This document shows, in pieces, positions 2,172 through 56,911 of a stretch of 64,000 nt of DNA. How positions within the stretch are numbered: position 1 is the first letter of the stretch; the number at the start of each line of letters is the position of its first letter. The stretch lies in IMG/VR virus record IMGVR_UViG_3300018429_000002, positions 7,578 through 71,577 of that record. One strand, written 5' to 3'. This stretch comes from a virus. The notes beneath the pieces were generated by a model. That model saw nothing but the letters and a program-made list of their open reading frames with translations. It did not search any database and was not told the origin of the DNA. Both the position numbers and the translations under genes were made by a program.

Positions 2172-2363
2172 ATGGCTCACAACCCGAAAGACAAACACGA
2201 CAAAACACTAGCCCCTGGTGATTCAGTAATCATCCGGGCGAAGGTATCAGACGTGTCTCGCGTAGGGACAAAGGTGTTCCTTGAGACCGTCGAGAATCGG
2301 GAAGGGGTTCCAAAACTCCCGTCGCTGCTTGAGTTGGATGGAAGGCAGGTTGAGAAATGCTAA
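2172..2363 (+). CDS. small hypothetical protein (KOW/SH3-like beta pattern)
   Basis: DKHDKTLAPGDSVIIRAKV motif; overlaps the endolysin start. Confidence 0.55.
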   Translation: MAHNPKDKHDKTLAPGDSVIIRAKVSDVSRVGTKVFLETVENREGVPKLPSLLELDGRQVEKC

Positions 2364-3376
2364 CGCTTGACCAGCTACGTCAGATCATGCCCAACGCAAA
2401 AAGGGCGTCCGAATACTTCCCCTACTTAGCTCAGGCGATGGTCGAGTTTGAAATCAATACTCCGCTGCGTGAATCCGCTTTCCTTGCCCAGTTGGCTCAT
2501 GAATCGGGCGAACTAAAACACATGGAGGAGATTGCTTCCGGCTCAGCATACGAAGGCCGCAAAGACCTTGGCAACACTGAACCAGGAGACGGCAAGCGCT
2601 TTAAGGGGCGCGGGCCGATCCAGTTGACCGGGCGCGCAAATTACAAGAAATACGGCGAACTGCTCAAACTGAATCTAGTCGACTTCCCCCTGATTGCCGC
2701 CACTCCTGAAGTTGGATTCCGCATCGCTGGTCTGTATTGGAAGTTAAACGGGTGCAATCGTGCGGCAGACGCTCAAGACTTCAGAGCGATCACGAAGGCG
2801 ATCAACGGAGGCTATAACGGACTGGATGACCGGATTAAGTATTATGAGCGAGCAAAGAGGGTTCTCGCTGAGCCCGTAGCGGTTAAGACTACGCCTTCTG
2901 TAATTGGAGCAATAGGCGCACCCGCGCTTGGGCAAATTCCGCCCGTAGGGATTCCAGCAGAAGATGCGCCACAAGACACGGCCACGCCGGCGGCTGCAAA
3001 GCCAGACAATCCGACACCCCAAAACATTACGCTTCAGCCGACCGTAGCGGACAATGCGACCGCAAAGAAAAGTTTATGGGCGACAGTATGGGCGGCTCCT
3101 GCGCTAATCGGCACTTGGGCGCTGACGAACATTGAAAGGGTTTTCGGCTGGCTAACAGGTATCAAGATGCCCACGATTGATCCTCAGACGCAGAGGATCG
3201 TGCTCATAGGTGTGGCTGTGATTATCGCGCTGTTTATCATCAGGCAGATCGTTGGGAAAGTGATTGCGGAAGTGGGAGCGATTGTTATCACGCTGCGGTC
3301 AATGAAGTATCACGCGGACCCGGTGACTAACAATGTCAAGATTGCATCCCCAGCACCAGCGGAGGAAGCGAAATGA
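2357..3376 (+). CDS. endolysin, glycoside hydrolase family 19, with Pro/Ala linker and C-terminal hydrophobic helices
   Basis: AFLAQLAHESG, YEGRKDLGN..PGDG.RFKGRGPIQLTGRANY and ITKAINGGYNGLDDR are GH19 signatures. Confidence 0.92.
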   Translation: MLTLDQLRQIMPNAKRASEYFPYLAQAMVEFEINTPLRESAFLAQLAHESGELKHMEEIASGSAYEGRKDLGNTEPGDGKRFKGRGPIQLTGRANYKKYGELLKLNLVDFPLIAATPEVGFRIAGLYWKLNGCNRAADAQDFRAITKAINGGYNGLDDRIKYYERAKRVLAEPVAVKTTPSVIGAIGAPALGQIPPVGIPAEDAPQDTATPAAAKPDNPTPQNITLQPTVADNATAKKSLWATVWAAPALIGTWALTNIERVFGWLTGIKMPTIDPQTQRIVLIGVAVIIALFIIRQIVGKVIAEVGAIVITLRSMKYHADPVTNNVKIASPAPAEEAK

Positions 3377-5832: not shown

Positions 5833-5988
5833 CTAACTTTTCTTGGGCCGCCCGCGCTTTACGGTCCCGCGCTTCGTATTCCAGTAGGGAGAGTTACATT
5901 TAGCACAACCAGTCGGGACGATTTCAGAGATCCATTTATGGCCACAGCGCTCGCAAATACACTTGTTGACTTTGATCGGGGTAATCAT
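5833..5988 (-). CDS. 51-aa C4 zinc-finger protein with AT-hook-like tail (not in the ORF track)
   Basis: Translates as MITPIKVNKCICERCGHKWISEIVPTGCAKCNSPYWNTKRGTVKRGRPKKS; GGAG upstream. Confidence 0.75.
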   Translation of the reverse strand: MITPIKVNKCICERCGHKWISEIVPTGCAKCNSPYWNTKRGTVKRGRPKKS

Positions 5989-20590: not shown

Positions 20591-23224
20591 GTGGCGACAT
20601 TAGGCCGGCTAACGACGGTATTTGATGCCGACACCGTCAAGTTTAAGGCGGGCTCCGCGGAAGTTCAAAAAGGACTTGCTGGCGTCGAGAAGTCCATCAA
20701 TAGCGTATCTAGTTCCGCCCGAGGCTTTGCCGGCGGCATCCTACCGGGACTCGCAAGCATTTCAGAAATCATTCAGGGAATTCCGCAGATCGGACGACTT
20801 GCAGGCGGGCTGATCCGTCCGCTAACCGATGCTGCAGAAGAAGGCATCCGTCTCAATATGGTTTTGGAGACGGCTAAAATAGGATTTGAGGGCGTTGCGG
20901 GAAGCGCGGAGAAGTCAGGAAAGCATATTGCTGCTTTGATGGCATTTGGGCAGTCTTCCCCCTTCAGATTTGAAGGACTATTAGAAGCCTCACGGTTCAT
21001 GACTGCCTTTGGTTTTGAACTTGACGAGCAGATTCCAAAATTAACAGTCTGGGGCAACGCGCTTGCCGCATCTGGTGAACTGTCAGCCTCCAAGGTTCAG
21101 GATGTGGTGCGAGCGTTTGGGCAAATGCGGATGGCGGGCAGAGTCAACGCTCAAGATATGAACCAGTTGACGAATGCAAATATTCCCGGCTGGGAATTGC
21201 TTGCAAAAGCCATTGGAAAGACCGTCGCACAAACGCGAAAACTTTCCGAGGCTGGAAAACTGGAAGGCAAGTCGGCGGTCGAAGCTATTACGGCGATGAT
21301 GGCCCAAGAGCCGCGCTTCAAGGACATGATGAAGCGCATGGAGGGAACGGGCGCAGGACGGCTAAGCGCCGCTCAGGACGTTATTCAGTTCGCCCAGGCT
21401 AAAGCAACGACATCGCTGACTCAGGATATTTCCACAACCTTGGGCGCGGCGCTTCAGAGACAGAACGTAGTTAGTGAATTGGCTGGCTCGATTAACAACG
21501 CTATCACGCCCGTTTCCGCATTGATAAGAACGGCGGCGGTTGGCGTTCTGGGAGGCGGATTAACGTCAGGATTTATCGAGGGAATTCAGGCCGGGAAGGA
21601 TGCGGTCAAGGCTGCGGTGGGTGACTTCGCGTTAGACGGCATCATTGGAACGGCAAAGGGCTGGCTGGGCATTCAATCCCCCTCCACAGTGTTCTATGAC
21701 ATGGGGCTAATGTCTGCGCAGGGCTTTGCTTTAGGACTACAAGAAGGATTCAGAGATAACCCAATAGTCAGAGAACTGGAAAAGCTGCTTGAAGATCCGC
21801 GAATGCGAGCATTTTTTGAAGCTATCAAAAAAGCTGAGGGCGGTTCATTAAATGTTATGGCCGGGGGCCGCAGAGTGGATTCCGGCGCTCAACATCCCGG
21901 CGAGGTGGTGCCTAAGTCTCAATGGTTTCGCGGCGACAAAGGCCGCAGTTCAGCCGCCGGGAACTACCAGATCACGCGGACAAACTGGCGTGTGATCGCC
22001 GCAGAGCTAGGCCTCGATAACTTCTCAGATCCGCATCAACAATTGCTGGCCGCTGTGAAGTTGTTTAGAGATCGCCGGGAAGGGGCGGGCGTCCAGGCAT
22101 TGCAAAGTGGTGACATCGTAGGAGCCCGTAATGTGGCGGCGCTAGATTGGACTTCGACTCCTGGTTCAAAGATTGGCGGTGGCGGTCAAGTTGGCGCAAA
22201 CAAGTGGATGGGTCATTACAATCAAGCACTGTCGTCGATGTCAGTTGGTGGTCGTGAAGTTTCGTCTAGTAATCCGTTCCCCGTTTACCTCGTTACCGGA
22301 GGCGTTGGGGGTAATGGTAGTCCCTTGATGTCGTTCGGCGCTCCTCAAAACGCAGAACGCTCGGGCGCAATGCGACCGGCTGGATTTACTGACCTGACTG
22401 ACGCGCAGGCCGGAATGGTCGTTGATCGATTCAAAGCCGCACGAGGCGAGGTCTTAGCCACAACTACCGCCGCCAATAACCTAACGATCTCATTCAAGGC
22501 AGTGGCAGAGGTCGCGGGAATAGCGGCAGAGCAAAGTCAGGGGCAGGCCTTAGCCGCAGGCGAATGGGCCAAGGTAGTTATTCAACAGACCGACGATCTG
22601 GGCACACGTCTGCGTGACATTTCAGACTCGTTACCAACATTTAGAGAGAACTTTAATGACATCGTTTCCGGCTTACCCGAAGGTCTGGGAAATATTTTTG
22701 GTGATGCCGTGCATGAGTGGGATCTAACCATGAAGGGATTTCTGACATCGCTCGGGCAAGGCGTGCAGCGGACACTATCGGACATTGCATCGATGGTGGC
22801 TTCAAGTGCTATTAAGAACGCCTTTGCCGAACTACTTGCGGGGTTATCATCGGGCGCGGGTAAAGGCGGATTCTGGGGCGGATTGCTTAAGACTATCTTT
22901 GGCGCTGCCGTTGGCGGGGCGGCGGGTGGCGCTGGGGGTGGCGGCGGGAGTGGATATGCGGGAATGGGTAACGTTTATGTTGGCGGGTACGCTTCTGGCG
23001 GTATCGTTCCAGGCGTAGATCGCGGATACGATTCCGTTCCGGCTATGCTTACACCCGGCGAGCTGGTTTTAACAAAGGAACAGCAGCGGGGAATGGGCCA
23101 GCAGGTCGTGAATAAGTATTACACGATTAATTTACCGCCCGCGCCTAACTCAAGCTATAACCCGCGACGTTCGGCAAGGCAGCACGCGGACATGGTTCTC
23201 GCCGCATTGCAGGGGGCGCAATAA
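20591..23224 (+). CDS. tape measure protein with embedded lambda-R-like lytic transglycosylase domain
   Basis: N-terminal tape-measure domain (SPF.F.GL, AFGQM...GRV.AQDMNQL...IP.WELLA); AFFEAI..AEG, SSAAGNYQ, DNFSD..Q, WTS.PG; C-terminal YASGG.VPG...DSVPAMLTPGELV. Confidence 0.92.
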   Translation: MATLGRLTTVFDADTVKFKAGSAEVQKGLAGVEKSINSVSSSARGFAGGILPGLASISEIIQGIPQIGRLAGGLIRPLTDAAEEGIRLNMVLETAKIGFEGVAGSAEKSGKHIAALMAFGQSSPFRFEGLLEASRFMTAFGFELDEQIPKLTVWGNALAASGELSASKVQDVVRAFGQMRMAGRVNAQDMNQLTNANIPGWELLAKAIGKTVAQTRKLSEAGKLEGKSAVEAITAMMAQEPRFKDMMKRMEGTGAGRLSAAQDVIQFAQAKATTSLTQDISTTLGAALQRQNVVSELAGSINNAITPVSALIRTAAVGVLGGGLTSGFIEGIQAGKDAVKAAVGDFALDGIIGTAKGWLGIQSPSTVFYDMGLMSAQGFALGLQEGFRDNPIVRELEKLLEDPRMRAFFEAIKKAEGGSLNVMAGGRRVDSGAQHPGEVVPKSQWFRGDKGRSSAAGNYQITRTNWRVIAAELGLDNFSDPHQQLLAAVKLFRDRREGAGVQALQSGDIVGARNVAALDWTSTPGSKIGGGGQVGANKWMGHYNQALSSMSVGGREVSSSNPFPVYLVTGGVGGNGSPLMSFGAPQNAERSGAMRPAGFTDLTDAQAGMVVDRFKAARGEVLATTTAANNLTISFKAVAEVAGIAAEQSQGQALAAGEWAKVVIQQTDDLGTRLRDISDSLPTFRENFNDIVSGLPEGLGNIFGDAVHEWDLTMKGFLTSLGQGVQRTLSDIASMVASSAIKNAFAELLAGLSSGAGKGGFWGGLLKTIFGAAVGGAAGGAGGGGGSGYAGMGNVYVGGYASGGIVPGVDRGYDSVPAMLTPGELVLTKEQQRGMGQQVVNKYYTINLPPAPNSSYNPRRSARQHADMVLAALQGAQ

Positions 23225-23955
23225 TGGCCGTTGTATACCTCTTTGATGAGATTCTTTTGGATCCTGATATCTTCGTTGCGGGTGGGGCGTTGGGTGGCCC
23301 AACCTACAGCAACACAATGGCGCGCAATGCTCAGACAGGCATCCGCAAGGTGAATATTGGAAGGCTAGACTTTCAGCAGGAGTGGAATGTCCAAACTGAA
23401 CTAATGACACCCGCTCGCCTTGCCTACTTCATGAATTTCTGGGGTGGTGGCTACGGCTCGGGCTATGGCTTTCGAGCCGTGATCGTCTCTGACTTCTACA
23501 TGATCGACGAGGTGATCGGAATAGGCGACGGAGCACAGACGATCTTTCCGATAGTTAAAAAGTACATGCGCCCAGGCGCGAGCCACTCATACTCTCGACG
23601 CATTATCAAGCCGGTCGTGAATTCGCTTTTAGCGGTGGGTGGAGTTTCGCTATTTGAGCCAAACGGATCTACATCCCGAGTGATTCCAAGCGTGAGAGGG
23701 CAAGGGCAAAACGTCCCAGCATTCACCGTCAAACTTAACGATACGCCCACGGCTGCTTACACTGTAAACAACGTCACGGGCAACCTGATCATGACTTCCG
23801 CGCCGGGAGTAGGCGTGCTAGTCAAGGTGTCTTGTGAGTTCGACACTCCCGTCAGATTCTTGAATAACGCGGTTCAGATGAAACCCGACACGGCGAGCGA
23901 AATGAGCGGATTACAACTGGGAGAAATCTTGCCCGCCGAACTTGGGATAGCCTAA
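23224..23955 (+). CDS. distal tail protein (DUF2460-like, GTA-type)
   Basis: GA.GGP.YS, IG.GDG..T.F.I.K.Y, R.I.KPV, FDTPVRF motifs. Confidence 0.85.
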   Translation: MAVVYLFDEILLDPDIFVAGGALGGPTYSNTMARNAQTGIRKVNIGRLDFQQEWNVQTELMTPARLAYFMNFWGGGYGSGYGFRAVIVSDFYMIDEVIGIGDGAQTIFPIVKKYMRPGASHSYSRRIIKPVVNSLLAVGGVSLFEPNGSTSRVIPSVRGQGQNVPAFTVKLNDTPTAAYTVNNVTGNLIMTSAPGVGVLVKVSCEFDTPVRFLNNAVQMKPDTASEMSGLQLGEILPAELGIA

Positions 23956-24518
23956 TTCCGTCGATCTATTATTTTCCGAGCCTCTAGAGCGGCCCCCTTG
24001 TATTTTTGAGCATACATTGCCAGGAGAGCATCGCAAGCGGCGGAACTTCTGAGCCTGCGACGCTGGGCAAGAATCTCAGTTTCTCTAGCACTCTTACCTA
24101 TAGCCTCCCCCAATATTTCAAAAGCGGGAACCCCAATATCAGACAACGCAATGAGATTTAGATATACCGCATCGTCTCTGCCGTTTTTTAGCGAAGCCAT
24201 TCGCCCTACCAATTCTGAGTAGCCCTGATCGTTAAAGTCTAACGCTGCCGCCATGTCGCCACATGGGGTGAGGATTAACATAATCTGCTTCGGCTTAAAT
24301 CCCGCAACGATTAGCCGCTGCGAAATGCCAATCAACCCGGACTGATACGGAGTCTCGCTGGAGTAGGCAGCGAGTTGCGCCGCAAGGTACTCAGCTTCGG
24401 GCTTAGATTTTAGTAGTCGAGTAAAGAGTGGTATCGCGTCCTGAGCAGATGTCTGACCATTTGCGAGAGTTGGAAACGAGAGCAGCAGAATCGCCAACGT
24501 CAATATGAAGGCTTTCAT
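23952..24518 (-). CDS. exported stand-alone tape-measure N-terminal-domain protein (candidate superinfection exclusion)
   Basis: Signal peptide MKAFILTLAILLLSFPTLANG; mature part aligns by eye with tape-measure residues ~100-250; own promoter. Confidence 0.75.
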   Translation of the reverse strand: MKAFILTLAILLLSFPTLANGQTSAQDAIPLFTRLLKSKPEAEYLAAQLAAYSSETPYQSGLIGISQRLIVAGFKPKQIMLILTPCGDMAAALDFNDQGYSELVGRMASLKNGRDDAVYLNLIALSDIGVPAFEILGEAIGKSARETEILAQRRRLRSSAACDALLAMYAQKYKGAALEARKIIDRRN

Positions 24519-24529
24519 AGTTAGCGGAG

Positions 24530-24559
24530 ATGCTACGCCTCCAGGTATCCGCCTGTCAA
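24530..24559 (-). promoter_or_regulatory. sigma70 promoter of the antisense moron
   Basis: TTGACA-N18-TAGCAT, 11 nt upstream of the ATG at 24518. Confidence 0.7.
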
Positions 24560-24598
24560 AAAACTTAAACCCTCGTTTCCCTCTACACTTGGCATCCG

Positions 24599-25426
24599 AT
24601 GCCAGTATCCGCAGAGTTAATTGACCATCTCGCTTCAAATTGCACCTTCCTTTGTGCTATCTGGAAAATGACAGCGGCGGATGGGACGGTTGCCGCCTAC
24701 GCTGCTCACACGCGGAGCCTGACCTTTGACTCCCAACTCTACACCGCCGCCCCGGTTGAGCCTACCCGCTTCTCCCGAACCCTCGGCGTCTCGAAAGCCG
24801 ATCACGTTGAACTATTCGGAATCTTTGACGACATCGTGACAGAGGAAGACGTTCAGGGTGGAAGATGGAAAAACGCCAAGATAGTTTTCGAGTATGTGAA
24901 CTATTTGGATCTGACAATGGGTTCAGTGGGTCGCATGAAAGGTCAAGCCGGAAAATTCACGATCAACAACGGGACATTCAACGTTGAACTTCGCTCGCTT
25001 TCCGATCTGCTCAGTCAAGAGATAGGCCAACTCACGAGCCCGCTCGATCGTCGCCGCCGTCTGGAAGATTTAGGCATCGACACCGCCCCGTTTATCTTCG
25101 CCCGAACAGTCACAGCAGTTGCGGATCGGATGAATTTCACGGTAGGCGGAACGGCTAAAGATGACAATTACTTCCAGTATGGACGGGTAGTTTGGAGCGG
25201 TGGAGACAACGAAGATTTAGAGATGGAGATCAAGGCGAATGTTGGTAACGCAATTGAACTTCAGTTGCCAATGCTGAACGCGATCGAAGTGGGCGACACC
25301 GTTGATCTCTATGCCGGATATGACGGCACAAGGGAAATGTGCAGAGATAAATTTAACGCAATGGAAGGCTTTGACGGCGAATGCGATCTTCCCGGAATTA
25401 AAGGGGTCATAACGTTTCCAGAATGA
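24599..25426 (+). CDS. baseplate hub protein (DUF2163/BR0599-like)
   Basis: W.MT..DG.....H..SL.FD, YFQYG.V.W..G.N, GYD.T...C..KF.....F.G...PG motifs. Confidence 0.88.
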   Translation: MPVSAELIDHLASNCTFLCAIWKMTAADGTVAAYAAHTRSLTFDSQLYTAAPVEPTRFSRTLGVSKADHVELFGIFDDIVTEEDVQGGRWKNAKIVFEYVNYLDLTMGSVGRMKGQAGKFTINNGTFNVELRSLSDLLSQEIGQLTSPLDRRRRLEDLGIDTAPFIFARTVTAVADRMNFTVGGTAKDDNYFQYGRVVWSGGDNEDLEMEIKANVGNAIELQLPMLNAIEVGDTVDLYAGYDGTREMCRDKFNAMEGFDGECDLPGIKGVITFPE

Positions 25427-25863
25427 GCACGCTAGCTGAAAGAATTGTTACCGAGGCTGAGGGCTATGTCGGCACTCCCTTTTTGCATCAGGGGAGACTG
25501 AAAGGCCTTGGGATCGACTGCGCCCACTTTGTTGCGAACGTGATCAACGCGGCCCGTGCTAATACGCCAGACATCAAAATTCCTCACGACTACAGACGGC
25601 GAGAAGATGGCACAATCATGATGGGGCTACTTGGGGCTAACGCAGACTTTGTGCCTACCGAAGAAAGGCAACCGGGCGACGTGCTGGCCTTGTGTGATGA
25701 AGCGTTGCGATTTCCTGGCATTCCCCGACACTTAGCCTTCGTTAAAGAAGTCACGCCGAAAACCACGTTTATCATTCACGCATCCGAGCACGGAGTTAGA
25801 TCGCACCGCATGGACGCGAGATGGATGCGGCGGATTCATTCTGTGTGGAGGGCGCACGAATGA
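25423..25863 (+). CDS. NlpC/P60 tail-tip peptidase
   Basis: GTPFLHQGR..G.GIDC, PGDVL, HLAF, IIHA. Confidence 0.9.
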   Translation: MSTLAERIVTEAEGYVGTPFLHQGRLKGLGIDCAHFVANVINAARANTPDIKIPHDYRRREDGTIMMGLLGANADFVPTEERQPGDVLALCDEALRFPGIPRHLAFVKEVTPKTTFIIHASEHGVRSHRMDARWMRRIHSVWRAHE

Positions 25864-28800
25864 TGATTCGAGAGGCGATAGAAAGATACAAAGAGATCGC
25901 CGCTAAGAAACGAGCGGAACTTGACGCCGCTTTAGAAGCGGGCCAAGTAGCCGATCCTGTCTCTATCGGAATTTCAATAGCGATCTCCGTGGCACTCTCT
26001 GCCGCGTCATACTTAGTTGCAACTGCTCTTGCTCCAAAGCCTCCACGTCAACAGCAAGGGAAGTTAGCCGGATCGCTTCAGTTGATGAACTCCGAACAGG
26101 GATTGTTCATTCCTGAAATCTACGGAGCAGGCCCAGAAGTAACTTTAGTCACTGGGGCGAATCCAACATGGCAGAATCTTACAAACACTACAGGGGGCGC
26201 TGACGGCTCGATAACGAAGACAGGCGGCTCGCCCACCGCTTACGATGCGGGAGCAAGCCACAACGTCTCTGTGACTGCAGGAGATGCCTTTATCGAGGTG
26301 ATTGCGGGCACGGGGCCAGCCTCTGTGGGGTTTGTTACGACCGCATCACCTACGATTGACGATGATTTACTTTTCGGCGTGCAGTGGCATTCTGAGGGTA
26401 CTTGTCATGTAAACATCGGCGGGGCAAATTATCCCGTTGGACACTGGACAACCGGCGACACGTTCCGGGTCGAGATCCGTAAAGGGCGCTTTCGTCTGTT
26501 CAAGAATTCTGCTGAGTTGTCTCGCTTCTCTGCTCCGGTTCCCACTGTGGTTTATCCCCTTCACCTTGGGATCATCATGTATGCCTCGGGCGCGGGAGTA
26601 TCGAACACAAAGGTCAAGATTGCGGATATTGGAGAACCACCGAATGCCGGGCGGGGCGGGGTGAAGGTTCCAGCGATGATCGTCTGGACTTCCCGTATAA
26701 GAAAAAACGTTTCAGTCACTCAGCAACCAGTACAGGGAGGCAAAGGCGGAGGATCGCGAAGTCAAACGATTGAGAACATAACCTACGACATTGATGTCCG
26801 CCTGAACTATGCCAATTACGGTCCACACAGACTCATTCGAGAGTATGGCAACGCAGACATTCTGATCGATCAATACACACAATCAGCGAATCCCACCGGA
26901 GTCCATGATCCGACTATTGATCCCGACGCTCCTTACGATCCAACCGCCCCGCCGGATCCACAGCCGGATTATCCGACACCTATTGCGCGGGTCAACGCTG
27001 ATATTGACTTCGATGGTGACGACGTAGGAACTGGAGCAATTCAAGCGGGCGGGTCTTCGTTCGCGGTCTACCCTGGTAATGACACTCAAGACCCTGATCC
27101 CACCGAAGAAGGGGACGTTGATGCGCGGTATGGTGCTGGATCAACGCCTGCACATAGAAACCGCTCGGGAATCGTCCACAAGCAGTTTGACTTGTCTCGA
27201 TGGTCGGGAATGGTTCCAAACTTCACAGCCGCATGGGAGCACACCGTACTGAAGACGATTGACGCGATCTTTGCATCGTTCTGCGAGCGCGTAAACGTCT
27301 TAGCGGCGGATGATGATTATGACTTCACTGGACTCTCGGAAATTGCTTCTCGGGGAATGTTGATTTCGGGCCGGCTGTTCAAACCGTCAGAGGTGATCGA
27401 CTCGCCGGAAATTCAACTTGCCTATAACTACTTTGTGACCGAAGCGGAAGGCCAGATTATTGGCTACGAGGAAGGTGACGAGCCAACACTTGAGATTGAT
27501 GACACAGAAGTGGGCTGGTTGGACGGTGAGGCAGATGTCCCTGACATCATTCCCGAACTGGAGTCTTTGTTAGTTTCAGAGATTTCCTTGCCTCGCCAGA
27601 TAGACGTTAAATCCATTGATCCCGACGATGACTGGGACGCGACGACGGCTAGTGCGCAGAGGCAAGTTACCGAAGGCGTCAGCACGGAATTACTTGAGAT
27701 CGCGATCACGCAACTGGCAGAAGAACGGAGGGCAACGGCTCAGAGAGCTTTGTATCGAAGGCACGCATCCAACGCGGGGCACAAATTCACTCTACCCTGG
27801 ACCTATCTCTATATTTACCCAGGCTACAGATTGATAATTAATCGGGCGGAAGGCTTTACCCACACTTTGCGACTAACCTCAGTCTCTGGTGGTATTGGCG
27901 TGCTGGATTGTGAGGGGGTCGCATTACAGCCTGCCGTATTCAATCAACCTGCTACCGGACCAAACGGCCCAGGTAATCCGCCGCCTCAACAGATTCCCGC
28001 CATGACCGTGATGTCTTTGCTTGATACTCCGTTATTGAGAGAAGAAGACGCTGGCAAGGTTGGACAGTATGTTGTCGGGACTCCTCGGACTGGATTCAAT
28101 CAGGCTTGGCGAGGATTTGGCCTCGTGATGTTCAAGAACAACGAGTGGATCCCGAAAGCTAGCTCAGAATTACCGGGCACGATTGGAACAGTGGTCAGCG
28201 TGACGGGACTCTCTGACGATCCTGAAACCATCGATCTCGTTGGTGAAATCGTTGTTGACCTGTACGGAACAACTCAAACCCTTTCGAGCGTGACTGAACC
28301 GGACATTGAGGGCGGCGCGAATCTTGGATTGTTCGGAAACATGCTGGGCAACTTTGCCGACGCAACGCAGGAAGCAGGATTCCCAAATCGCTGGACGCTA
28401 ACCACGTTATTGAATGGGCAGAAAGACACGGTGGCTTATATCAACGAGGTGGCAGCGGGCGATCGCTTTGTCCTGATCAATGAAGCGGTCAAGTTCTTTT
28501 CGATGGAACTGGAAGACCTCAACACCGAGTTTGATTATCGGGCCATCACTGTCGGGCAGTCATTAGATGACGCGGCAACGATTCCGTTTACATGGACTGG
28601 TGGAACGGTTCGAGATCGCACGGTCTCAGGCGTGGTTATCGTTACGGATGAAAGCGATGACACCTTGGTTTGGTTTACGGGACGCCCACGACCCGGCGAC
28701 TTAAACGCGAGATATGTTGTAGAGGTATGGGCTGATACTGGCCGAAGCGATCCGGCTGAACTTTTAGGGACTCTCCCGGTAGAAGAAGTCTCTACGCATC

Positions 28801-45818: not shown

Positions 45819-46055
45819 ATGACCGACCTAACAAACATTGGAATCGACGGCGCAAAACTTCGAAAGGCCAGAGACAAGTCTGGTCTTAGTCAATCACAGG
45901 CTGGGCAGGCTGTAGGCGTAGGCAAGGCAGCAATCTCAAAAATTGAGCGCGGGGGGACTTCGCCTTCGTCGGACGTACTTGCTCGCCTATGCAAACTCTA
46001 CGGTGTCGGCATCGCAGAGATAACGCGGCGAAACGCAAGAGTCGAAGCGGTGTAG
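45819..46055 (+). CDS. Cro-like XRE regulator
   Basis: LRKAR..SGLSQSQAG..VGV.KAAISKIERG...PS. Confidence 0.85.
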   Translation: MTDLTNIGIDGAKLRKARDKSGLSQSQAGQAVGVGKAAISKIERGGTSPSSDVLARLCKLYGVGIAEITRRNARVEAV

Positions 46056-55442: not shown

Positions 55443-55688
55443 ATGAGCGCTCGATTTCAAATCGTTGACTCTGATATGGACGACCTGATCCCGCTTCACG
55501 TCGGGGCCGCAAAACTTGGTTTGGATGCGTCCACGATTCGCAAGCGGAAGGCAGGCACGGAGAAGCTAACCCTTATTCGGCAGGGTCGAAATCTCTACAT
55601 GGTGCTTGGGGAAGTGATTGCGCACCGGCAGAAAATGACAGAAGATGCGCGGCGTAAGAACAGCCCTATCCGGTTGGTGACTGAATGA
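55443..55688 (+). CDS. excisionase-like winged HTH (putative)
   Basis: AAKLGLDASTIRK; overlaps the integrase start. Confidence 0.6.
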   Translation: MSARFQIVDSDMDDLIPLHVGAAKLGLDASTIRKRKAGTEKLTLIRQGRNLYMVLGEVIAHRQKMTEDARRKNSPIRLVTE

Positions 55689-56911
55689 TTAAGAAATTCT
55701 TCTCAAATCGAAATCGCCCTGGCTGGAAGTACGACTCTCGTCTGAAGAAATACTATTCGTGGGGCTTTGAAATGTATCTGGCCTCTGGCCGGCGGAAACG
55801 TGAGACTGGGTTTCTAAATCGGGCCGATGTTGAGTCGGTTGTTGTTCGGATTCGTCAACTGGAAAAGGAGATGCGATATGGAGTCACAATGTCCGTGGAA
55901 GCGCCCACTTTGGAAGAGGTGTCCGCGAAGAAGCTCACGCTCACGGCAAGCCGCAGGGAGCAGGTGCGAGCGAAGAGAGTTCTAGCCGTGTTCCGCAGGG
56001 TTGCCCAGGTCAAACGAGTGACAGAACTGAAAACCGAGCACCTTCAAAGATTCGTAGACTTCCGTCGCAAGGAAGTACAACCGCAAAGCGTTGACCGGGA
56101 GTTGAATATTATTTCTGGGATGCTCCGTGCTGCCGTAGTTCACTTCCCTGCTTTGTCTGACTGGATCGTTCCTCGCATTCCTCGCCCTAAGCACTCAAAG
56201 CGCCGCAGAGAGCGAGTAATAAGCATTCAGGAAGTCGCCAAGGTCTTGACCTGGCTCTACGCGCCGCAGGAAGGCGAGACGGTAAGGCAATCCGCGAAGC
56301 GCCGGAATGTGGGCCATGTATTCCGAGTCGCATTACTGACGGGGGCACGCAAGGGCGAACTGTGCAAGTTACGGTGGAGTCAAGTCGATTGGGATGCGGG
56401 GGTCGTCCAGATCATTGGAACCAAGACTGAAAACAGATCCGAACAGACCTCCCGCTACATTGCTATCGATCGAATGTTGGAAGTGATTCTTAGGGAGCGG
56501 CAAGCGGTCGCGGGCGATTTTGTGTTTACGCGGGCAGGCGGAGAGGTAACGCACTATTACAAGATTCTCAAGGAAGCCTGCGAAGCCTGCGGCGTAGCCT
56601 ACGGCAAAGACGTGGCCGGGGGATTTGTGACTCACGACGCAAGGCACACGGCGGTTACAAGAATGCTTCGGGCGGGCATCGACCTGGCGACCATCGGATC
56701 CATCACCGGGCACAATGACAAGACGATGATTTTACGTTACGGCCACGCATCAACCGAGAGCCAAAAGCGAGCAATCGGAGTGCTTGAAAAGTTTGCTGGG
56801 TTTGACGCACTCGGAGACGGTTTGGAGACGGCTATAGATAGCGCGCCGATTTACTTAGGAAATCAGCAGGGTATGGTGCCGGAGGTCGGAACGAAACGCC
56901 GAAAAGCCTAA
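55685..56911 (+). CDS. int: tyrosine integrase
   Basis: LLTGARKGEL (R), TK (K), HDARH (HxxR), TGH and RY catalytic motifs. Confidence 0.93.
   Translation: MIKKFFSNRNRPGWKYDSRLKKYYSWGFEMYLASGRRKRETGFLNRADVESVVVRIRQLEKEMRYGVTMSVEAPTLEEVSAKKLTLTASRREQVRAKRVLAVFRRVAQVKRVTELKTEHLQRFVDFRRKEVQPQSVDRELNIISGMLRAAVVHFPALSDWIVPRIPRPKHSKRRRERVISIQEVAKVLTWLYAPQEGETVRQSAKRRNVGHVFRVALLTGARKGELCKLRWSQVDWDAGVVQIIGTKTENRSEQTSRYIAIDRMLEVILRERQAVAGDFVFTRAGGEVTHYYKILKEACEACGVAYGKDVAGGFVTHDARHTAVTRMLRAGIDLATIGSITGHNDKTMILRYGHASTESQKRAIGVLEKFAGFDALGDGLETAIDSAPIYLGNQQGMVPEVGTKRRKA
56874..56890 (-). other. attP core matching a tRNA 3' end (tRNA-Leu-like acceptor)
   Basis: Minus strand reads TCCGACCTCCGGCACCA (T-stem, acceptor, CCA); GGAGACGG arm-type repeats at ~56813, ~56824 and ~57009. 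Confidence 0.75.

What the first reader, a model, noticed from the sequence alone, without database searches (positions are those of the whole stretch)
23952..24559. Exported stand-alone tape-measure domain on an antisense promoter: candidate self-mimic superinfection exclusion
Seen: an antisense gene between the distal-tail and hub genes with TTGACA-N18-TAGCAT and a Sec-type signal peptide (MKAFILTLAILLLSFPTLANG). The mature part aligns without large gaps to this phage's own tape-measure N-terminal domain: LAAYSSETPYQ-SGLIGISQRLIVAGF vs LMAFGQSSPFRFEGLLEASRFMTAFGF; LTPCGDMAAA vs LTVWGNALAA; LSDIGVPAFEILGEAIGKSARETEILAQRRRLRSSAACDALLAMYAQ vs LTNANIPGWELLAKAIGKTVAQTRKLSEAGKLEGKSAVEAITAMMAQ. Established: tape measure proteins are ejected and help form the DNA-entry conduit, and some exclusion proteins (Ltp, HK97 gp15) act through them. 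Inference: a lysogen-expressed periplasmic tape-measure fragment could co-assemble with incoming tape measure protein and block DNA entry as a dominant negative. I know of no described exclusion protein built from the tape-measure domain itself.
Basis: partly seen in the sequence, partly recalled or inferred. Interest (0 to 1): 0.85.

Follow-up and report, generated by a model that had tools for sequence, protein, structure and literature searches.

The report
Exported tape-measure-like protein in phage moron
A temperate soil phage carries, backwards inside its tail genes, an add-on gene for an exported protein from a previously undescribed family related to the front domain of phage tape-measure proteins; it may block entry of rival phages, but that is untested.

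Summary
A 188-aa gene (24518..23952, minus strand) fills a 643-nt gap between the distal-tail and hub genes. It has a Sec-type leader and is homologous to the N-terminal domain of the phage's own tape measure protein (TMP): BLASTP 28% over 129 aa, E 2e-10.

"Self-mimic" does not hold. The gene belongs to an old, diverged family. Forty-two cluster representatives of about 190 aa form one clade, separated from 109 TMP domains by a long, well-supported branch. The phage's own TMP sits deep inside the TMP clade. A leader-like N-terminus is present in 37 of 42 members, against 2 of 105 TMPs.

Every context seen is an accessory insertion:
- two phage tail operons, both antisense;
- a ParA-bearing element;
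- an insertion into the rbfA-DHH-cobO row of a Pyrinomonadaceae genome;
- an accessory region of another genome in that family.

Related phages have no insert at this site, or a different exported-protein gene. The phage has an integrase.

My best reading is a periplasmic blocker of siphophage DNA entry (about 0.4). Function is untested. The scan holds an unchecked note of a similar design on other DNA (e1-6173518).

The parts
23952..24518 (-). Gene for the 188-aa exported TMP-N-terminal-like protein (P0001), stop codon included. Its stop overlaps the stop of the convergent distal-tail gene.
   Evidence: 42-member family; AF2 model pLDDT 94
24456..24518 (-). Signal-peptide-like leader, residues 1-21 (one Lys, hydrophobic core, A-N-G before Gln22)
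   Evidence: hydropathy script: 37 of 42 family members have such a leader, against 2 of 105 TMPs. SignalP was not run.
23955..24455 (-). Mature all-helical domain, residues 22-188, homologous to TMP N-terminal (TMP_3-like) domains, ending in a basic tail
24530..24559 (-). Sigma-70-like promoter match TTGACA-N18-TAGCAT (10 of 12); would give a nearly leaderless mRNA
   Evidence: 2 sites found, 2.1 expected from shuffles, so weak on its own; a perfect TTGACA also precedes the unrelated cargo at the same slot in L038
24560..24572 (-). 13-nt block at the hub-side border of the insert, identical in the L038 insert that carries a different cargo
20591..23224 (+). The phage's own tape measure protein (877 aa). 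TMP_3 domain at residues 86-263 (nt 20846-21379), preceded by a hydrophobic segment.
23224..23955 (+). Distal tail protein gene, left neighbour of the insert
   Evidence: phrog_2913, 1.2e-21; homologues in 7 related loci
24599..25426 (+). Hub / tail assembly protein gene, right neighbour of the insert
   Evidence: phrog_778, 1.3e-30
55685..56911 (+). Tyrosine integrase, the basis for calling the phage temperate
45268..45726 (-). HTH_3/HTH_31 protein, candidate repressor, divergent from the + strand gene at 45989

Best explanation
The gene is a moron: a self-contained add-on inserted backwards between the distal-tail and hub genes of a temperate siphophage with an RcGTA-like tail. The phage probably infects Acidobacteriota. 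The gene encodes a Sec-exported, compact all-helical protein of about 167 aa after cleavage.

The protein belongs to a rare, horizontally mobile and previously undescribed family. That family is an old, diverged sister of the N-terminal (TMP_3-like) domain of tape measure proteins. These points are shown, or nearly so.

The function is inferred. I propose that the protein is made from the prophage, when the late operon is silent, and sits in the periplasm. There it would interfere with the step in which the ejected TMP of a superinfecting siphophage refolds and builds the DNA conduit at the inner membrane. It could do this in two ways:
- by occupying the envelope site or host factor that the TMP N-terminal domain uses; or
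- by binding the incoming TMP.

Either way it would act as an injection-stage superinfection-exclusion or defence protein. Bacterial copies of the family would do the same for the cell. It is not a specific mimic of this phage's own TMP.
For: Real gene and family:
- phmmer found 1898 proteins at E<=1e-3. The top hits are full-length proteins of 180-208 aa, followed by long TMPs.
- AF2 gave pLDDT 94 and pTM 0.85.
- In a tree of 152 rows, 42 short proteins lie on one side of a 99-supported branch of length 1.3.

Export:
- 37 of 42 members have a leader-like N-terminus. The 5 exceptions are two N-terminally cut fragments, two with shortened starts and one without a leader.
- Only 2 of 105 TMPs over 400 aa have such a window in their first 45 residues.

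TMP homology.

Insertion in this phage:
- 12 loci were found with the hub protein, 11 of them at 62-69% identity.
- 7 of the 12 show the distal-tail gene upstream. In 6 of these the gap to the hub gene is 8-13 nt. L033-L036 gave identical match values and positions (L034-L036) and are probably one lineage.
- L038 has a 572-nt gap holding a different antisense gene that also has a leader.
- 0 of the 12 loci match P0001 by tblastn at 1e-5.

Other contexts:
- L025: the short gene is antisense and immediately upstream of a TMP gene. The flanking ORF matches residues 10-120 of a 1012-aa TMP, E 2e-6 in a library of 153 sequences.
- L026: HTH_17, then the short gene, then ParA/CbiA.
- G001: the gene is inserted in the rbfA-DHH-cobO row. 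None of 13 related loci has it. In 11 of these cobO follows DHH at 72-454 nt, against 779 nt in G001.
- G020: the gene sits in an accessory region after a TonB_C gene.

Rarity: short forms were found in 2 of 121 family genomes, 2 of 401 order genomes and 1 of 401 phylum genomes.

Temperate phage.

Precedent from papers (passages read):
- The HK97 gp15 exclusion moron lies in the tail operon just before the TMP gene, and has bacterial homologues outside prophages (PMC3594210).
- Ltp, Tab and SNIPE all act through TMPs (PMC11480721, PMC10884400, PMC13190303).
- Some SNIPE homologues carry a domain homologous to the P22 tail needle (PMC13190303, section 9).
Against: - There is no functional, expression or localisation data of any kind.
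- The function of the TMP_3 domain itself is unknown.
- The short family has lost many residues that are nearly invariant in TMPs, for example the T-P-F, G-Q-M and K-G-K-V positions and the Trp at own-TMP position 201. It has gained its own conserved residues, such as a Cys in 86% of members. It is therefore not a faithful surface mimic.
- The promoter match is no better than chance in its 2.5-kb region, and no terminator-like site was found on the minus strand.
- There is no Shine-Dalgarno sequence at a normal distance.
- PADLOC gave no hit for 7 family members.
- The GC dip of the insert is small: 0.49-0.52 against 0.53-0.55 in the flanks.
- Only five independent contexts were seen, out of 42 clusters.
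Confidence: 0.4

Rival explanations
1. It is an exported accessory protein whose role has nothing to do with phage entry, such as an envelope, nutrient or stress function. The TMP-derived helical domain would be just a re-used scaffold, and the phage would carry the gene as an ordinary lysogenic-conversion moron.
For: - Strong divergence from TMPs at TMP-invariant positions, with family-specific conserved residues of its own.
- Chromosomal copies outside prophages.
- In G020 it follows a TonB_C-domain gene by 93 nt on the same strand.
- Some members carry extra C- or N-terminal domains of unknown kind: P0020, P0021, P0024 and P0080.
- No PADLOC hit.
Against: - Two of five contexts are antisense slots inside tail operons within one gene of the TMP gene.
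- The patchy, rare, insertion-type distribution is typical of defence or exclusion cargo.
- The domain comes from the one virion protein that crosses the periplasm.
Confidence: 0.3
2. It is a dominant-negative self-mimic: a recent copy of this phage's own TMP domain that co-assembles specifically with the TMP of the same or sister phages.
For: The pairwise similarity to the phage's own TMP is significant, and the gene lies one gene away from the TMP gene.
Against: - The phage's own TMP is not the closest TMP: 35.9 bits against 51.7-62.7 bits for the long TMPs listed.
- The tree puts P0001 in the short clade and the phage's own TMP deep in the TMP clade.
- The nearest relative, P0003, is another short protein at 51% identity.
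- None of the 12 loci found with the hub protein has the gene.
Confidence: 0.07
3. The leader is not cleaved, and the protein is an inner-membrane-anchored sensor or adaptor at the injection site. It would recruit or trigger another factor rather than blocking entry by itself.
For: - A third of TMPs (34 of 105) have a hydrophobic segment within 45 residues before the domain, so a 'hydrophobic helix plus domain' unit may be ancestral.
- SNIPE shows that membrane placement next to the TMP can be used for defence (PMC13190303, passages read).
Against: - The leaders end in small-x-small motifs before Gln, Glu or Asp in most members, as cleaved Sec leaders do.
- No conserved partner gene appears across the five contexts.
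Confidence: 0.13
4. It is not a functional gene, only a chance antisense ORF or a decaying TMP fragment.
For: There is no ribosome-binding site at a normal distance and no terminator.
Against: - There is no competing + strand ORF of 40 aa or more across the gap, apart from a 51-aa one.
- A 42-member family is conserved over its full length, leader included.
- The fold is predicted with high confidence.
Confidence: 0.02

Closest known systems
N-terminal domain of phage tape measure proteins (Pfam PF20155 TMP_3; NCBIfam TIGR02675 tape_meas_nterm)
   Same: Homologous in sequence and in predicted fold. Core positions are shared, such as the G-(V/I)-P-A...L-A..I-G-K stretch.
   Different: - Stand-alone, about 190 aa, with a Sec-type leader and a basic C-terminal tail.
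- No coiled-coil body.
- Below both curated cut-offs.
- A separate clade behind a long branch.
- Many TMP-invariant residues are replaced.
HK97 gp15 moron (superinfection exclusion; YebO-like)
   Same: - An add-on gene inside the tail operon next to the TMP gene.
- An envelope-located product.
- Bacterial homologues outside prophages.
- Exclusion depends on the incoming tail (PMC3594210, passages read).
- In L025 the short gene sits directly before the TMP gene.
   Different: gp15 is a small inner-membrane protein. I ran no sequence comparison with it. Here the product is a larger exported domain derived from the TMP itself, and the gene is antisense to the operon.
Ltp of Streptococcus phage TP-J34 (lipoprotein exclusion factor that targets the TMP)
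   Same: A prophage-encoded, exported protein proposed to stall the ejected TMP (as summarised in PMC11480721, passages read).
   Different: Ltp is a lipoprotein with two HTH-type repeat domains. P0001 has no lipobox Cys and a different, TMP-like fold.
Tab (Pseudomonas phage JBD26) and SNIPE (E. coli), defences that recognise TMPs
   Same: The TMP is the recognised phage component. Some SNIPE homologues carry a domain homologous to a phage entry protein, the P22 needle (PMC10884400 and PMC13190303, passages and section 9 read).
   Different: Tab acts in the cytoplasm on tail assembly, through the TMP C-terminus. SNIPE is a membrane nuclease. Neither is reported, in the parts I read, to be built from a TMP domain.

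Membership tests
Pfam PF20155 TMP_3 / NCBIfam TIGR02675 | Score at or above the curated cut-off (41 bits; 21.35 bits) | tested here: not met
   P0001 has no hit at E<=1 in either library. Relatives reach 19-39 bits, below the cut-off. The phage's own TMP passes both.
Pfam PF20155 TMP_3 / NCBIfam TIGR02675 | Homology to the domain by sequence and fold | tested here: met
   BLASTP E 2e-10; phmmer E down to 3.8e-12 against long TMPs; Foldseek BFVD TM 0.72-0.75
Moron (as described in PMC3594210: an independent transcription unit inserted between genes that are adjacent in related phages) | Lies between genes that are adjacent in relatives | tested here: met
   The gap is 8-13 nt in 6 of the 7 related loci that show both genes, against 643 nt here
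Moron (as described in PMC3594210: an independent transcription unit inserted between genes that are adjacent in related phages) | Own promoter and terminator | tested here: inconclusive
   A promoter-like site is present but no better than chance. No terminator-like site was found on the minus strand.
Moron (as described in PMC3594210: an independent transcription unit inserted between genes that are adjacent in related phages) | Base composition unlike the flanks | tested here: inconclusive
   GC 0.49-0.52 in the insert against 0.53-0.55 in the flanks
Sec (SPase I) secreted proteins | Positive n-region, hydrophobic h-region, small residues at -3 and -1 | tested here: met
   Read by eye and with my own hydropathy script. 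Conserved in 37 of 42 family members. No SignalP run and no experiment.
Bacterial lipoproteins (Ltp-type exclusion factors) | Lipobox with Cys at +1 | tested here: not met
   There is no Cys in residues 1-85 of P0001
Known anti-phage defence proteins (PADLOC-DB 2.0) | Match to a model | tested here: not met
   0 families for 7 family members at E<=0.01
Superinfection exclusion proteins (functional class) | Expressed from the prophage; blocks DNA entry without blocking adsorption | not testable with these tools
   Needs a host, a phage and expression data

The most novel reading that the evidence does not exclude
An ancient, horizontally mobile family of periplasmic 'tape-measure decoys' is a new class of injection-stage immunity. 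The N-terminal domain of the TMP, together with the hydrophobic segment that precedes it, was cut loose and turned into a Sec-exported protein. Both temperate phages and Acidobacteriota now pass it around as a cassette. It would block the last step of conduit formation by siphophages. In doing so it would reveal what the widespread but functionally unassigned TMP_3 domain does during DNA entry.
Probability: 0.3. Interest if true: 0.8.

Novelty: new variant of a known kind. Interest (0 to 1): 0.6.

Why it matters
TMPs are turning out to be a main target of bacterial and prophage defences (Ltp, gp15, Tab, SNIPE). In the papers I searched, no defence or exclusion factor made from a TMP domain has been described.

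If this family works as proposed, it would add 'mimicry of the entry machine in the periplasm' to the list of exclusion mechanisms. It would also give a handle on the unknown role of the TMP_3 domain, which is present in a very large number of siphophage and myophage TMPs.

Even without the function, the finding defines a new exported protein family that arose from a virion protein. It also shows a swappable antisense cargo slot in the tail operon of a group of soil phages.

Tried and rejected
Complex prediction: the mature protein against the phage's own TMP residues 80-275, both given as alignments. Verdict 'no answer', score 0.00. It counts neither for nor against binding.

Expression: the look-up of sequencing runs on window 22000-27000 listed no run, and no RNA holder was listed.

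Fold searches:
- Foldseek against PDB gave nothing at E<=0.001.
- VIA-align wide gave a best Z of 7.7 over 74 residues to a designed helical protein. All rows were generic helical matches.
- The PDB sequence profile search gave a best hit to a 'probable tape measure protein' chain, E 0.016.
- I do not claim a new fold.

Protein atlas: no hit at 0.9 or above, and structural TM values were all below 0.4.

PADLOC: none for the family.

Close relatives in public collections:
- Viral-contig scans with P0001, A2, P0005 and P0006 found none.
- The phages and plasmids collections gave only long TMPs, or nothing.

The genome contigs and metagenome-contig scans used a single peptide pattern and returned only 1 and 3 loci. 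L003 and L027 differ at 8 of 12,400 bases and count as one context.

Literature: searches found no paper describing an exported stand-alone TMP-domain protein or a TMP-derived exclusion factor. Subscription journals are mostly not in that library. Supplements were closed. Supplementary Table 3 of PMC13190303, which lists the N-terminal domains of SNIPE homologues, could bear on whether TMP-like domains are already recorded in a defence protein.

Idea rejected: the gene as a recent duplication of the phage's own TMP 5' region.

Rows dropped before the tree: P0026, a 120-aa fragment spanning fewer than 120 model positions, so 152 of 153 stored proteins were used. One short protein without a leader, P0121, fell among the TMPs and is taken as a TMP fragment.

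Unpublished genomes: G014 is one of the 16 of 121 hits, where it is a fragment. G014, G018 and G033 are among the 58 of 61 DHH matches.
Full report
WHAT IS THERE.
The window is bases 7578-71577 of a 71,577-bp IMG/VR virus record with direct terminal repeats, rated 100% complete. Between the + strand distal-tail gene (23224-23955, phrog_2913) and the hub gene (24599-25426, phrog_778) lies a 643-nt gap. Its only long ORF is on the minus strand, ATG 24518 to stop 23952, 188 aa.

The surrounding tail module is of the RcGTA/R4C kind. It runs TMP (877 aa), distal tail, hub, a 146-aa peptidase-like protein (phrog_329 minor tail protein), then a 1018-aa protein (compare PMC10276861, passages read).

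The stop of the short gene overlaps the stop of the convergent distal-tail gene. A longer reading from TTG 24638 is possible, but every relative starts directly with the leader, so ATG 24518 is the start.

It is not significant on its own, with 2 sites found against 2.1 expected, and it would give a nearly leaderless mRNA. No terminator-like site was found on that strand. GC dips only slightly across the insert.

HOMOLOGY TO TAPE MEASURE PROTEINS.
BLASTP of the 188-aa protein against the phage's own TMP gives 28% identity over 129 aa, E 2e-10. [quoted passage not shown]

The small protein itself misses both curated models at E<=1. Other evidence still shows homology:
- It hits TMP families in PHROGs.
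- It hits the TMP of Bacillus phage Finn.
- It hits hundreds of long TMPs in the 1.84-billion-protein library.
- With the family alignment, AF2 gives a compact bundle of eleven helices, pLDDT 94 and pTM 0.85.
- Foldseek matches this model to predicted TMP N-terminal domains at TM 0.72-0.75.

No solved structure matched convincingly.

A FAMILY, NOT A SELF-COPY.
The best library hits are not TMPs. They are full-length proteins of 180-208 aa (sequences).

I built a tree of 152 domain segments. One 120-aa fragment was dropped.
- 42 short proteins form one side of a branch of length 1.3 with SH-aLRT 99.
- 109 TMP segments and one leaderless fragment lie on the other side.
- The phage's own TMP sits in a 10-row TMP clade (96).
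- P0001 pairs with P0003, at 51% identity.

The phage's own TMP scores 35.9 bits against P0001. That is less than every long TMP among the 150 best hits, which score 51.7 bits or more.

A column comparison shows that many positions nearly invariant in TMPs are changed or free in the short family. The short family also has conserved positions of its own, including a Cys in 86% of members. The scaffold positions are shared. So the gene is not a mimic of this phage's TMP in particular.

EXPORT SIGNAL.
By a simple hydropathy rule (11-residue window, mean 2.0 or more, ahead of the domain), 37 of 42 family members have a leader-like N-terminus. It typically has Lys or Arg at the start and small-x-small before Gln, Glu or Asp. 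The five exceptions are two N-terminally cut fragments, two with shortened starts and one without a leader.

Only 2 of 105 TMPs longer than 400 aa have such a window in their first 45 residues.

In 34 of 105 TMPs a hydrophobic window lies within 45 residues before the domain, as it does in this phage's TMP. The leader may therefore descend from that segment. This is inference only.

WHERE THE FAMILY LIVES.
All ten representatives that I looked up are singleton clusters from metagenomes, named 'hypothetical protein' or nothing. I could see five independent contexts.

(1) This phage: antisense, one gene after the TMP gene.

(2) L025 (1.4 kb): antisense, directly before a TMP gene. The flanking ORF matches residues 10-120 of a 1012-aa TMP (E 2e-6 in a 153-sequence library), and the gene is convergent with the preceding gene. 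This is the slot of the HK97 gp15 moron (PMC3594210).

(3) L026 (3 kb): an HTH_17 protein, the short gene, a 96-aa ORF, then ParA/CbiA.

(4) A Pyrinomonadaceae MAG (L003; L027 is the same organism, 8 differences in 12.4 kb). The gene lies between the DHH phosphoesterase and cobO, in the row rimP-nusA-infB-rbfA-DHH-cobO.
- In 13 related genomes none has the gene.
- In 11 of them cobO follows DHH after 72-454 nt, against 779 nt here.
- In the other 2, cobO was not in the locus.
- So it is an insertion.

(5) G020: after a TonB_C-domain gene, among small genes that include an HNH endonuclease and PHROG families of unknown function.

Short forms are rare in genomes:
- 2 of 121 in the family. The other 14 hits lie in ORFs of 836-1631 aa, except G014, a fragment.
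- The same 2 of 401 in the order.
- 1 of 401 in the phylum.

THE SLOT IN RELATED PHAGES.
The hub protein found 12 IMG/VR loci, 11 of them at 62-69% identity. The distal-tail gene is visible upstream in 7 of them.
- In 6 (L030, L033-L037) the gap to the hub gene is 8-13 nt. L033-L036 gave identical match values and positions (L034-L036) and are probably one lineage.
- L038 has a 572-nt gap holding a different antisense gene, whose product also begins with a leader.

The two inserts share an identical 13-nt block at the hub-side border, and each has a perfect TTGACA. None of the 12 loci has the TMP-like gene. This site is therefore a swappable antisense cargo slot.

LIFESTYLE AND HOST.
A tyrosine integrase (PF00589, 79.6 bits) and an HTH_3 protein divergent from the replication genes point to a temperate phage. 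Hub homologues up to 51% identical occur in 11 of 121 Pyrinomonadaceae genomes, and the short family's best TMP relatives are prophage TMPs of that family. An Acidobacteriota host is therefore likely, by inference.

READING.
Shown:
- a real, inserted, antisense gene;
- an undescribed family with a conserved leader;
- homology to the TMP N-terminal domain;
- mobility across phages, an element with ParA, and chromosomes.

Inferred:
- export and expression from the prophage;
- action on incoming siphophages at the TMP step.

The inference rests on the slot, the kind of cargo found there, the origin of the domain, the patchy distribution, and precedents in which TMPs are the target of exclusion or defence (PMC3594210, PMC11480721, PMC10884400, PMC13190303; passages read). 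PMC5099701 (abstract and outline read) shows that the N-terminal 154 residues of a different type of TMP are needed for infectivity.

Against it:
- there are no functional data;
- the family diverges at TMP-invariant positions;
- the regulatory signals are weak;
- there is no PADLOC match.

I put the exclusion reading at about 0.4, an unrelated envelope role at about 0.3, and the original self-mimic idea below 0.1.

The scan's notebook holds an unchecked first-reader note of a similar design in another genome (e1-6173518). I could not examine it.

Noticed in passing
L038:5431-5976 (minus strand; probable start at the internal Met that precedes a leader): At the same distal-tail/hub slot, a related phage carries a different antisense gene. 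Its product begins with a signal-peptide-like leader and has no Pfam or PADLOC match.
   Followed up: partly
window 24560-24572 and L038 about 5958-5970: An identical 13-nt block lies at the hub-side border of both inserts, just upstream of a perfect TTGACA in each. It may be a relic of the ancestral junction or a recombination site for cargo exchange.
   Followed up: partly
L037:1938-2519 (minus strand): A 193-aa antisense ORF fills a roughly 1-kb gap between the hub and peptidase genes of a related phage. It has the look of an HNH-type homing endonuclease. L029, L030 and L031 also have 260-360-nt gaps at this second slot.
   Followed up: no
L028:2555-2734, L031:3194-3403, L026:221-490: Small HTH proteins with a basic K-P-G-R-P-R-K-like tail lie just upstream of the hub gene in two related phages, and just upstream of the short TMP-like gene in L026 (HTH_17, E 1e-9). 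They may mark a shared mobile module.
   Followed up: no
L020:8330-9781: In G020 the short gene follows, by 93 nt on the same strand, a 483-aa protein with a TonB C-terminal domain. This could be an operon linking the family to a periplasm-spanning protein.
   Followed up: no
window 20591-20850 (TMP residues about 45-80) and 34 of 105 other TMPs: A hydrophobic segment lies directly before the TMP_3 domain in a third of the TMPs sampled. It may be the ancestor of the family's leader, and a hint that this end of the TMP meets a membrane.
   Followed up: partly
window 2357-3376: A 339-aa protein with a Glyco_hydro_19 (class I chitinase-like) match, E 8e-7; a candidate endolysin.
   Followed up: no
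P0020, P0021, P0024, P0080 (library proteins): One subclade of the short family carries extra domains of 90-140 aa, C-terminal or N-terminal, with no Pfam match.
   Followed up: partly
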